DNA from: Carcharhinus longimanus
Lineage: Eukaryota
Assembly: GCA_030264375.1 (NCBI GenBank)
Contig: JASCQW010000190.1
Location: 40,368,182-40,432,181, forward strand
Direction: 5' to 3'
Length of the DNA stretch: 64,000 bases
The translations under genes were made by a program, and so were the position numbers. Under the pieces are notes generated by a model. It was not told where the DNA came from and ran no database searches. It was given only the letters and a program-made list of their open reading frames with translations. Shown here piece by piece: positions 38,495 to 41,650 of the stretch. The stretch's first letter is position 1; every line of letters starts with the position of its first letter.

Positions 38495-41400
38495 TCTTCT
38501 GATTATTTTGATATTTTTATTCTGTTGTAAGAATTTGATCCATCTCAAAACTGCATAAATACAATGGGAAGTAATGTATTTAGACTTCTTTTTCCATGGA
38601 ACTAACCTAACACTAACTAACAGAAAATTAAATTTCAACAGTATCTGACTAATATGAAGTCAAAAAACATTGTAGTAAAGACTGGATACAGGTACTTCAT
38701 GGTCTAAGTTTTAAAAGGAAATACACAGTTTTTTGTTTCATTATTCTTGTATTTTTTTTGATACTGTAAATTTGCCAAAATAGGCAAATTGATTTCAGTG
38801 GGAAAGCCTTACCTCTTCTTCTACCATAAAATCAATTTTTGTAAGCGCATCTTAAAAATATTTTCTGATTGCCTGGAAAGATAAAGAGATATATATTCAA
38901 ACAAACTGGTCCGTAACACATTTCTAAGGGTTTTTTTTAAATGCTAGGTCATTCATTTTACAAGATTCATGTTTTTACATAGTGTTGATTAAGTTATTTT
39001 GTACTTGTTTCTCTTCAAGTGTCTTGATATTGTCTTGTGCATTTCGGGTACTACAGCAAGATGTGCAAGGCCATAGACCTGTTTATAGTTTGATATAGAG
39101 CATTTCAATTTCTTCTTTCTATGCAGGACTGCCATGCCCAGCTGAGAACTGATGAAGCTCAAGCAGTGGCAGGCAAATGCGATTGACAGGCATAACTATC
39201 ATTTGAACCTACAACCATTCTTTTGTGAGACAAGCATTCTACTACCTGTGATAGGTTAATAGCTACTTCTCCCACCACAGAGAAGTCTGATCACTGTACA
39301 TCTTTGTTACAGGATTCACAGTTACAGATGCAATTTACACAAGTAAATTGTTTAAATAGTTGGGGAAGAAAGTTAGCATCAGTAAACATTTCCATAAATC
39401 CAAGACTTCTATTTTAAGTTTTTTCAACAACAACTGGCACACTGCCATACATCAAGTATAAATACAAGAAAAATATGAGCACTAGTAAAGTTTACATATC
39501 TATTTAGAAAACTGTATGATAAGTGTTGTAATAATATTTGCTCATCTTACAGCTTCTCATTATACAGTTTTTCAAAACAAATGTTGCAGCAATACAAAAA
39601 TATCTCAAATATGGTGCATTTTGTTTTATTTTTAATTCTGATTTCTTCTCCCAAATCCATTTGAATCTCAAAGACGCTGTCAAAATTTGTGAAATTTCAA
39701 GACAAGGGGCACTGTCTGGGTACAGCATTTCATCACGAATTTGCATAATAATGTCAGTTCCAGTCTAAAAAAATTGATTGTACTTCTACAGTAATAGAGG
39801 AGTCATTTTGCATTGCAGTGATTGTGACTTTGAACATGTATAGAAGTAACAACAATTTTATTCAGTAATTCTATATATTCATACAAAGGCAAAAGGCGGG
39901 GAATTATAGGCCGGTTAGTTTAACGTCTGTGGTAGGTAAAATGTTAGAATCCGTCATTAAGGANNNNNNNNNNNNNNNNNNNNNNNNNNNNNNNNNNNNN
40001 NNNNNNNNNNNNNNNNNNNNNNNNNNNNNNNNNNNNNNNNNNNNNNNNNNNNNNNNNNNNNNNGGCGGGGCAGGCTCGAAGGGCCAGATGGCCTACTCCT
40101 GCTCCTATTTCTTATGTTCTTATGTTCTTATGTTCAAATACTATGGATGGAAATTAATTTACCCAATAATCAAAAATGTGTCACCATAAAATAAAATAGA
40201 TCAATACATTATGATACATTATTAATAATCACTCCCAATCGTGATTTTTATTTTCATCTTGCAAAACTAGGTAGGACCTGTGTGATAGCCATGCAGAAAT
40301 CCTTAGTAATTAAGCACTGTATAGGATGGTTAAACAATTTGTAGCAGTCCTGAAAAAAAGTCAATGTATACACGTCACTGCCTTTTCCAGGATCAGCGGC
40401 AAAATAACAATTCGCATTTACAATTAAAAGATTCTATCCCGAAAATACCATTCATTAGGTTACCTCGTGTTTGAAAGGTTACTTGTTAGATTAGTTGTTA
40501 GATTGGTTGAGGCAAAATACGATTCATCGAAATAGTAAATACAAAATGTAGCTTGTTTTTGTTTGTGTGTCCAATTGTTACATTGACAAAACAAATGCAA
40601 CAAAATAATTTAAACAGGATTATTTTGGTTAAGGTATTATGTTCGCCCATTCATTCCTTCCAGGAAATATTTTTCCAGAGTAACCGTTTATACATAACTA
40701 ACATCTAATGCGGGTATTTGCAACTTGTGATGCATAGGTTTAGGGGAAAACAAGTTGCTTTATTTAGAAAATGATGCCGGTATATTTTCAATTAACCTAA
40801 AGGCTAGCCAGGGCTCCCCTAATCATTTACTTTTGTTTTCCGAGGGGTTCACAAACCAAGCTGTCCCGGAGTTAAACCTAACACGGCATCGTCTGTATGT
40901 TTGGTTGTCAGCAGACACAGAAAAACGTGCTGACGACTGCCAGCTTCCTCCAGGCAAACCTGCCGATCGCAATCAATTTCAGGTCACGAATTTCAAATCA
41001 AGGACTTAAGTTTTCTCTGACGGCCGGGGCCCCTCAGCATGTGTGTGTGAAATGCAGCAGCGTCCCAGCTCCTGGGCACTCGGCTACAAGCACTGTGATA
41101 ACCGCGAGTAAAACTACACCTTGCTTCCAAGGCTGAGCGTAAATTGTTGGCTCTCCTTTCGTTGAGGGGAAATCCATGATCTCTATGCGATTCCGTTAGA
41201 ATATTATTATTATTTTTACCCACACACCCTGGAAGCTGGAGAAAACTGTGGGGGTGAGACGAACATTCGTTGTATTCAACTTTTTAACAACATTACCAAC
41301 ACAATAAATAATTCGTTTTTTAAAAAACACAAAATCTCCTAACGTTCAGCAAATGTCAGTTGCAAATACGCACGGGAAGAGGAACGTAATAAGCGGAGGG

Positions 41401-41650
41401 TTTGAATTGCCCGGGATCGCTAATAAACACAGCGAGTGAGTGACTTACCCCGGTAGGACGGGACGCTCCAAACTACACCGCCCCGCTTTAAAGACGTTGA
41501 CTAGTTGGGAATAGTTCATCTTGCGGTGAATGAGAGTTGGAATAAAAGCCGCCGCCGAGGTCAAGCACTGCCGTCTCCAAGGGTGACGGACGGTGCTTGA
41601 ACTCCGCCGCGCGCGCGCCACGCTTCCGGTCGCCCGGCCCGCTGCCTTGA
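38495..41650 (-). ncRNA. Putative spliced lncRNA divergent to irx5 (candidate CRNDE ortholog); ends approximate
   Basis: Donor GG|GTAAGT at 41449/41448 at the edge of the CpG island; exon 39764-39551 (ttttttTAG| ... |GTAAGA); exon starting 38872 (tctctttatctttcCAG|) with internal donor GAG|GTAAGG at 38813 and AATAAA at 38521-38516; no long ORF; head-to-head with irx5, as CRNDE is with IRX5. Confidence 0.55.
39885..40135 (+). mobile_element. Young CR1 LINE (middle collapsed in a gap), antisense within an intron of the putative lncRNA
   Basis: GNYRPVSLTSVVGKMLESVIK before the gap; tail (ttcttatg)x3 after it. Confidence 0.9.

What the first reader, a model, noticed from the sequence alone, without database searches (positions are those of the whole stretch)
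38495..41650. Candidate shark ortholog of the lncRNA CRNDE: spliced minus-strand gene head-to-head with irx5
Seen: a CpG-island first exon ending at GG|GTAAGT (41449); a further donor GAG|GTAACC (~40464); a 214-nt exon 39764-39551 with canonical AG/GT; and a strong acceptor at 38872 followed by AATAAA (38521-38516) and T-rich downstream sequence. The 60-nt segment 38872-38813 has stops in all three frames. Known: human CRNDE is a spliced lncRNA transcribed divergently from IRX5. From memory (unverified), the 214-nt exon is collinear with a human CRNDE exon: ACTGGAA near the acceptor, gccccttgtcttgaaatttc vs gccgttggtctttgaaatttc, agattcaaa vs agatgcaaa, and atatttttgtattgctg vs atatgttttgggtattcctg. 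Inference: CRNDE may date back to the jawed-vertebrate ancestor with conserved exon structure, which is rare for a lncRNA.
Basis: partly seen in the sequence, partly recalled or inferred. Interest (0 to 1): 0.85.

Follow-up and report, generated by a model that had tools for sequence, protein, structure and literature searches.

The report
Likely shark counterpart of CRNDE
About 8 kb upstream of the shark irx5 gene, on the opposite strand, lies a CpG-rich, promoter-like stretch followed by splice signals that likely make a spliced, probably non-coding RNA, likely the counterpart of the human cancer-linked RNA CRNDE, though no transcript could be checked and the likeness to human is modest.

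Summary
The named signals are all present, and the neighbour is irx5. Three corrections. (1) It is not tightly head-to-head: exon 1 lies about 7.8 kb from the irx5 ATG in a separate island (human 2 kb, chicken 1.2 kb). (2) The 214-nt exon has weak splice sites but one frame open end to end. In a related species (about 2% diverged) that frame also runs through the 60-nt exon, so 'stops in all frames' is species-specific. (3) Published oligos confirm the recalled human strings, but only 1 of 7 human sites matches beyond chance alone; two collinear blocks give P about 0.001 raw, about 0.02 corrected. No RNA run was available, no protein homologue was found, and the exons are no better conserved than the introns. 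Verdict: probable CRNDE orthologue with its own promoter (0.55). An ancient small coding gene behind the CRNDEP frame is not excluded (0.12). The scan's index showed no such finding on other DNA.

The parts
40300..43500 (.). CpG island (core 41500-41900, about 65% G+C), separate from the irx5 island
   Evidence: CpG obs/exp 0.66-1.48 in all but one 200-nt step (0.49 at 42501-42700) vs 0.17 in 26-34 kb flank; trough under 0.3 at 44-47.5 kb
41609..41950 (-). Housekeeping-type promoter motif cluster: CCAAT 41793, GC boxes 41869 and 41741, ETS 41629, ZNF143-like 41916/41936, NRF1-like 41896/41618/41609, four CRE half sites
   Evidence: 2 of 12 GC boxes, 1 of 3 ETS, 2 of 3 ZNF143-like, 3 of 3 NRF1-like sites of the window in 600 nt; patterns recalled and partly chosen after seeing the sequence; part of the stretch reads N
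41449..41700 (-). Predicted exon 1 (5' end unknown), donor at 41449; ATG 41519 opens a 51-codon upstream frame if joined to 39764
   Evidence: no listed change in the related species in 41480-41680
40259..40546 (-). 288-nt stretch without a listed substitution in the related species; holds donor 40464 and acceptor 40349; candidate conserved intronic element (gVC-like, untested)
   Evidence: P 0.003 alone, 0.11 as longest gap; no folding signal, z -0.5
39890..40134 (.). High-copy repeat insertion, absent in the related species
   Evidence: joint 39889-40135 in 3 of 3 runs of organism B; depth in the millions
39551..39764 (-). Predicted 214-nt exon, weak splice sites, frame 0 open for 71 codons (P0001); blocks resembling human CRNDE at 39710-39691 and 39603-39587
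38813..38872 (-). Predicted 60-nt exon (or start of a terminal exon), strong acceptor and strong donor; TGA at 38834-38832 closes the frame coming from the 214-nt exon, and is a Trp codon in the related species
38516..38521 (-). AATAAA, possible polyadenylation signal if the 38813 donor is not used
   Evidence: unchanged in the related species
49472..49708 (+). irx5 first coding exon
   Evidence: 97% identical to Chiloscyllium Irx5a, 96% skate, 95% chimaera
50152..50373 (+). irx5 homeodomain region
   Evidence: Pfam PF05920, E 1e-18 on the enclosing frame

Best explanation
A CpG island with clustered housekeeping-type motifs lies about 8 kb upstream of irx5 and is followed on the minus strand by splice signals; it likely drives a spliced, probably non-coding RNA that is likely the shark orthologue of CRNDE and would act mainly in cis on the IrxB locus. 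Shown: the island, the motifs, the splice and polyA signals, single-copy status and the irx5 neighbour. Inferred: (1) NF-Y/Sp1/ETS/NRF1/ZNF143-type factors keep the promoter open, including in the germ line, which preserves its CpGs. (2) A strong donor about 250 nt downstream on the minus strand, against early polyA signals and no donor on the plus strand, makes elongation productive only away from irx5. (3) Exon 1 splices to 39764 and/or 38872, and the RNA ends at 38516 or splices on from 38813. (4) A 51-codon out-of-frame upstream ORF and the early stop limit any protein product to 78 residues at most. (5) What is selected is the promoter, the act of transcription and intronic elements rather than most exon letters. 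Repeat insertions would have pushed this promoter away from irx5.
For: irx5 identity. Island and motif cluster. Donor/polyA asymmetry: no plus-strand donor scoring 3 or more before 46647, plus-strand polyA hexamers at 42259 and 42362, minus-strand donor at 41449. Strong sites at 41449, 38872, 38813. Region single-copy. Block 2 matches a published human target at 17 of 21 letters with one gap, hand-scored; P 0.006 in the 3.3-kb finding, 0.06 in 23 kb. Blocks 2+3 in order, P 0.001 uncorrected. The human block lies about 10 kb from the CRNDE start and 336 nt from its 3' end (coordinates), about 12 kb from IRX5; the shark block is 9.8 kb from the irx5 ATG. Other mammals append exons beyond E6 (PMC3509318), as the 38813 donor would allow. 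Exons about as variable as introns between the two sharks: 3/214, 2/60, 3/232 vs 2.1% overall. Four repeat stretches between the promoter and irx5. No protein homologue in collections that hold shark, skate and chimaera proteins.
Against: 6 of 7 human oligo sites examined do not match beyond chance alone (3 by computer; siRNA2 P 0.46; the rest by eye). After allowing for choice among sites the joint P is only about 0.02. The promoter is not in the irx5 island, unlike human and chicken. The 214-nt exon has weak splice sites. Its frame 0 is open, which flanking DNA does in 0.6% (given frame) to 2% (any frame) of 3740 windows, and stays open through the next exon in the related species. Motif patterns were partly chosen after the fact. 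The cis function is inferred from general knowledge of divergent lncRNAs and from the CRNDE-IRX5 co-expression reported in PMC3509318, not tested.
Confidence: 0.55

Rival explanations
1. The gene is, or was, a small protein-coding gene. Frame 0 of the 214-nt exon continues through the 60-nt exon into further exons, is intact in the related shark and cut by a Trp-to-stop change here, and human CRNDEP is a remnant of the same frame.
For: 71 codons open (P 0.006-0.02). In organism B the two changes in the 60-nt exon are one synonymous and one stop-to-Trp in the continuing frame. The indel at the exon's 3' end amounts to 15 nt inside the exon, so frame is kept (my reading of the alignment). All three similarity anchors fall in shark frame 0 and in the CRNDEP frame as deduced from published oligos, epitopes and Pro47. 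Housekeeping-type promoter.
Against: No homologue at near or longer length. phmmer gave 3 hits, all tandem-repeat artefacts. Pfam 0. The one clean substitution inside the exon is non-synonymous in frame 0. The exon-1 ATG is out of frame and overlaps both in-exon ATGs; only 3 candidate bridging exons, all with weak donors. PMC4433331 found CRNDEP only in primates, and PMC3509318 reports that starts, stops and frames are poorly kept beyond chimpanzee. Frame agreement over two intervals has a 1-in-9 chance. Organism B is one sample.
Confidence: 0.13
2. A real spliced transcript from this promoter that is not homologous to CRNDE exons: a chondrichthyan lncRNA at a similar position, with chance likeness in A+T-rich DNA.
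For: Only 1 of 7 human sites significant alone; block 2 has P 0.06 in 23 kb before correction. Promoter distance and intron sizes differ from tetrapods. Muret et al. report CRNDE for tetrapods.
Against: Two blocks in the right order, within one predicted exon, at a matching distance from irx5.
Confidence: 0.2
3. No stable spliced gene: an orphan CpG island or enhancer of the Irx cluster, with splice signals picked from chance sites.
For: About 950 GT and 970 AG sites to choose from; with 5 strong acceptors and 12 strong donors in 17 kb, a well-flanked short exon arises by chance fairly often. The middle exon's sites are weak.
Against: Dense core-promoter motif cluster, a strong donor at the edge of the island, and strand asymmetry of donors and polyA signals.
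Confidence: 0.12

Closest known systems
CRNDE (human ENSG00000245694; mouse Crnde/4933436C20Rik; chicken locus in PMC6868825)
   Same: Opposite strand, 5' of IRX5; CpG-island first exon; predicted multi-exon RNA with short ORFs only; two short collinear sequence blocks in the last-exon region at a comparable distance from IRX5; possible exons beyond that exon, as in non-primate mammals.
   Different: Promoter in its own island about 7.8 kb from the irx5 ATG (human 2 kb, chicken 1.2 kb, shared island in human); exon 1 to homologous exon only 1.7 kb (human about 10 kb); no counterpart of E2-E4 found; transcript unproven.
CRNDEP, the 84-residue peptide of human CRNDE (PMC4433331)
   Same: The shark open frame is the frame in which the similarity anchors fall in CRNDEP.
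   Different: Reported only in primates; not retrieved by searches with the shark peptide; its first half comes from exons with no shark counterpart found.
lncRNAs derived from lost coding genes (Hezroni et al. 2017, PMC5577775; abstract and supplement search only); T-ENOL/Cdiptos as an analogy from an earlier scan note (untested)
   Same: A divergent locus with an open frame in one lineage and a truncated one in another.
   Different: No annotated coding homologue exists for this frame in any collection searched; CRNDE was not found by name in that paper's 4 supplementary files (neither was IRX5, so the blank says little).

Membership tests
CRNDE orthologues | Antisense orientation 5' of IRX5 in the IrxB cluster | tested here: met
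   irx5 confirmed; another Irx homeodomain 660 kb downstream on the same contig; irx3 not returned by that search
CRNDE orthologues | Sequence homology to human CRNDE exons | tested here: inconclusive
   1 of 7 published oligo sites significant alone; joint P 0.001 raw, about 0.02 corrected; no full human sequence was available for alignment
CRNDE orthologues | Spliced multi-exon transcript | not testable with these tools
   No RNA holder listed; all laid runs behave as genomic DNA
CRNDE orthologues | Intronic conserved elements gVC-In1 and gVC-In4 inside the gene | not testable with these tools
   No tetrapod sequence of these elements was obtained; 40259-40546 is only a candidate
CRNDE orthologues | Same exon boundaries as human E5/E6 | tested here: inconclusive
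   Human ACTGGAA lies behind the exon 4/short exon 5 junction; whether it shares an exon with block 2 could not be read from the papers (recalled: an intron of about 1 kb lies between)
Divergent lncRNAs from a shared bidirectional promoter | Start within about 1-2 kb of the partner gene, in the same CpG island | tested here: not met
   7.8 kb to the irx5 ATG, CpG-poor repeat-containing spacer; not filed in this class
Long non-coding RNA | No conserved translated ORF | tested here: inconclusive
   Longest ORF of the three-exon model 78 codons, no homologue, but frame open more than chance and longer in the related species
lncRNAs that are fossils of coding genes | An intact annotated coding orthologue in another lineage | tested here: not met
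   None found; short unannotated ORFs could be missed
Structured RNA families (Rfam) | Covariance-model match or unusually stable fold | tested here: not met
   0 matches at E 1 or less in 36-50 kb; z -0.5 and -0.6

The most novel reading that the evidence does not exclude
CRNDE descends from a small protein-coding gene of the jawed-vertebrate ancestor that had its own housekeeping promoter inside the IrxB gene desert. It is still open across two exons in a related shark, was cut by a Trp-to-stop change in this species, and survives in humans as the CRNDEP frame, now thought primate-specific.
Probability: 0.12. Interest if true: 0.85.

Novelty: new variant of a known kind. Interest (0 to 1): 0.45.

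Why it matters
CRNDE is a much-studied cancer-associated lncRNA, documented in tetrapods mainly by position. A shark orthologue with recognisable exon sequence would date it to the jawed-vertebrate ancestor and point to the few exon letters worth mutating. A promoter standing apart from irx5 would separate 'by-product of a shared promoter' from 'gene in its own right', which the human locus cannot. If the open frame is conserved in cartilaginous fishes, the origin of CRNDEP would have to be rewritten.

Tried and rejected
No RNA holder listed: 5 runs, none on record as RNA; all five were laid and show no intron joints, as expected of DNA; no evidence either way on expression. Relatives' genomes not held. 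Metagenome scans: none for P0001; 3 Irx loci for irx5 exon 1, the irx5-like one with only 260 nt upstream. ESM Atlas: no usable hit. AlphaFold on the single sequence: pLDDT 62.8, pTM 0.36, three helices, uninformative; no fold search run. Paralogue beside the Irx2-like gene: 60 kb upstream gave repeats and chance-level hits only, including one at E 0.72 in the wrong orientation within the 214-nt exon. Sowah remnant (recalled idea): no ankyrin or other Pfam match; the paper was not held and one search listed nothing relevant. A by-eye likeness of the SH2 oligo to the end of the 60-nt exon was rejected (P 0.63). A transposon-derived frame is unlikely (single copy). An upstream promoter for irx5 on the plus strand is disfavoured. 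Human exon coordinates were sought in four SF3B1 papers' supplements without result.

Full report
Observation. On a simple weight matrix over the minus strand of 33-50 kb, donor 41449 ranks 9 of 951 and acceptor 38872 ranks 3 of 969. The 214-nt exon's acceptor ranks 92 and its donor 101; donor 40464 ranks 32. The 60-nt piece ends in a donor of rank 3, so it can be an internal exon as well as the start of a last exon ending near AATAAA 38521. The plus-strand gene at 49472 is irx5: its first exon is 97% identical to Chiloscyllium Irx5a and the next carries a TALE homeodomain. Both unique parts of the finding are single-copy in the genome.

Promoter. CpG observed/expected is 0.66-1.48 in all but one 200-nt step from 40.3 to 43.5 kb, against 0.17 in the 26-34 kb flank. 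It falls below 0.3 between 44 and 47.5 kb, where a comparison with another locus shows repeats at 44383-44723 and 46741-47255, with others at 43623-43800 and 48236-48620. Within 600 nt lie 2 of the window's 12 GC boxes, 1 of 3 ETS, 2 of 3 ZNF143-like and 3 of 3 NRF1-like sites, a CCAAT box and four CRE half sites (patterns recalled, partly fitted after the fact). The minus strand has a good donor about 250 nt from the CCAAT/GC region. The plus strand has no donor scoring 3 or more until 46647 and polyA hexamers at 42259 and 42362. By established knowledge of promoter directionality this favours productive transcription away from irx5. The promoter is thus a separate unit 7.8 kb from the irx5 ATG. 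In human and chicken CRNDE starts 2 and 1.2 kb from IRX5 (PMC6868825, passages) and in human shares its island (PMC3509318, section 4 part 1 and passages).

Expression could not be tested: 5 runs hold the stretch, none on record as RNA.

Comparison with a related species. Contigs of organism B (one sample, four runs) differ at 65 listed positions in 3136 aligned nt, 2.1%. The tables omit a few: 5 of 6 and 22 of 24 differences were listed for two contig pieces, and one search showed 40 of 111 rows. Exons are not measurably better kept: 3 of 232, 3 of 214, 2 of 60. A 288-nt stretch (40259-40546) has no listed substitution, P 0.003 alone but 0.11 as the longest gap. B lacks the repeat at 39890-40134. 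B's indel at the end of the 214-nt exon reads as 15 nt fewer in the exon and one more in the intron, with a weaker donor. One of three runs shows a 1-nt deletion at 41468 in the exon-1 frame.

Coding potential. Frame 0 of the 214-nt exon has no stop in 71 codons. Of 3740 flanking windows, 0.6% are open in a given frame and 2% in any. Spliced to 38872 it would run 13 more codons to TGA 38834-38832. In B that codon is Trp and the other change in the 60-nt exon is synonymous, so the frame stays open to the 38813 donor. Organism A's own run shows no difference there, so the stop is not an assembly error. Against a protein: the one clean change within the 214-nt exon is Arg to Cys; the exon-1 ATG gives a 51-codon frame that overlaps the in-exon ATGs out of frame, and the longest ORF of the model is 78 codons. 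Word searches at near and longer length found nothing. phmmer over 1.84 billion representatives gave 3 hits, all tandem-repeat proteins. Pfam gave none. These collections hold shark, skate, chimaera and primate proteins, but short unannotated frames can be absent.

Likeness to human CRNDE. No human locus could be fetched, so I used published oligos. Block 3 is covered, but for three middle letters, by another target there and by an siRNA in PMC8806644 (passage). Hand-scored, block 2 matches 39710-39691 at 17 of 21 with one gap; shuffles of the same composition reach that score in 0.6% of 5000 trials on the finding and 6% of 1000 on 23 kb. Block 3 reaches P 0.02 in the 139 nt downstream and 0.24 on the whole finding; jointly P 0.001. 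Seven distinct human sites were examined and only block 2 stands alone. Three oligos aligned by computer gave P 0.52-0.63, siRNA2 alone 0.46, and shRNA#2 and #3 show nothing by eye. Two further sites (upstream exons) were not examined. Allowing roughly 20 possible pairings, the joint P is about 0.02 (my estimate). ACTGGAA opens the shark exon, and a shuffled 7-mer occurs in those 100 nt in 1.2% of trials. In human it lies just behind the exon 4/short exon 5 junction (PMC4433331 Table 1 and passages; PMC4791275 passages). I recall, unverified, an intron between that short exon and block 2, so this anchor is weak support for conserved exon structure. Pro47 of CRNDEP, at the start of block 2, is at chr16:54,919,202 (PMC11277161, passages), 336 nt from the gene's 3' end by the coordinates. 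All three anchors fall in the CRNDEP frame and in shark frame 0; across two intervals that has a 1-in-9 chance.

How it most likely works. A constitutively open promoter would fire away from irx5 and yield a spliced RNA of about 0.8 kb or longer, with short ORFs only. Selection would fall on the promoter, on transcription through the IrxB regulatory landscape and on intronic elements, as described for human CRNDE, whose most conserved parts are intronic. The cis role is inference. Rivals: small coding gene or its fossil (0.13), unrelated lncRNA at the same position (0.20), untranscribed island with chance sites (0.12).

What is known. CRNDE is reported in all tetrapods examined by synteny, with zebrafish among the 8 species compared; gVC-In4 is conserved to zebrafish. 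I found no paper on CRNDE in cartilaginous fish: 'CRNDE'+'shark' gave 16 papers, none on this by title or abstract start (listing only); one search listed 25 of 638, none with CRNDE; others (7 of 7; 25 of 46) added none. Graham 2011 and the 17-species lncRNA comparison that I recall includes elephant shark were not held, and the supplement of PMC11050281 could not be read. These may bear on novelty and on human exon boundaries. The scan's index showed no look-alike on other DNA and no note with CRNDE or irx5; one report overlapping this stretch is withheld.

Verdict. A probable CRNDE orthologue with its own promoter, unproven as a transcript, with a minority chance of an ancient coding origin. 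Interest 0.45.

Noticed in passing
window 39890-40134: 245-nt high-copy repeat present in this species and absent in organism B: a recent insertion in the predicted intron.
   Followed up: partly
Candidate conserved element.
   Followed up: partly
window 48236-48620: CpG-rich repeat just upstream of the irx5 promoter region; a strong minus-strand donor lies at 48446 within this repeat-rich stretch. A second donor at 48856 in unique DNA could serve an irx5-proximal first exon.
   Followed up: partly
window 34435-35206: Decayed repeat fragment, about 62% like a copy near the Irx2-like gene; by eye LINE/CR1-like, not tested.
   Followed up: no
window 38300-38360: Dense cluster of 11 substitutions and several indels against organism B, just past the predicted 3' end.
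   Followed up: no
window 49430-49453: CA microsatellite immediately before the irx5 start codon, probably in the 5' UTR.
   Followed up: no
G000 C132:100.31 and 101.22 Mb, C190:41.08 Mb, C119:25.07 Mb: Other Iroquois homeodomains, by position likely irx2, irx4, irx6 and a fifth gene on a third contig; irx1 and irx3 were not returned at E 1e-15.
   Followed up: no
paper PMC8081992: Lists as an siRNA against CDKN2D the same 21-mer that PMC7442829 gives as a CRNDE target: a probable labelling error.
   Followed up: no
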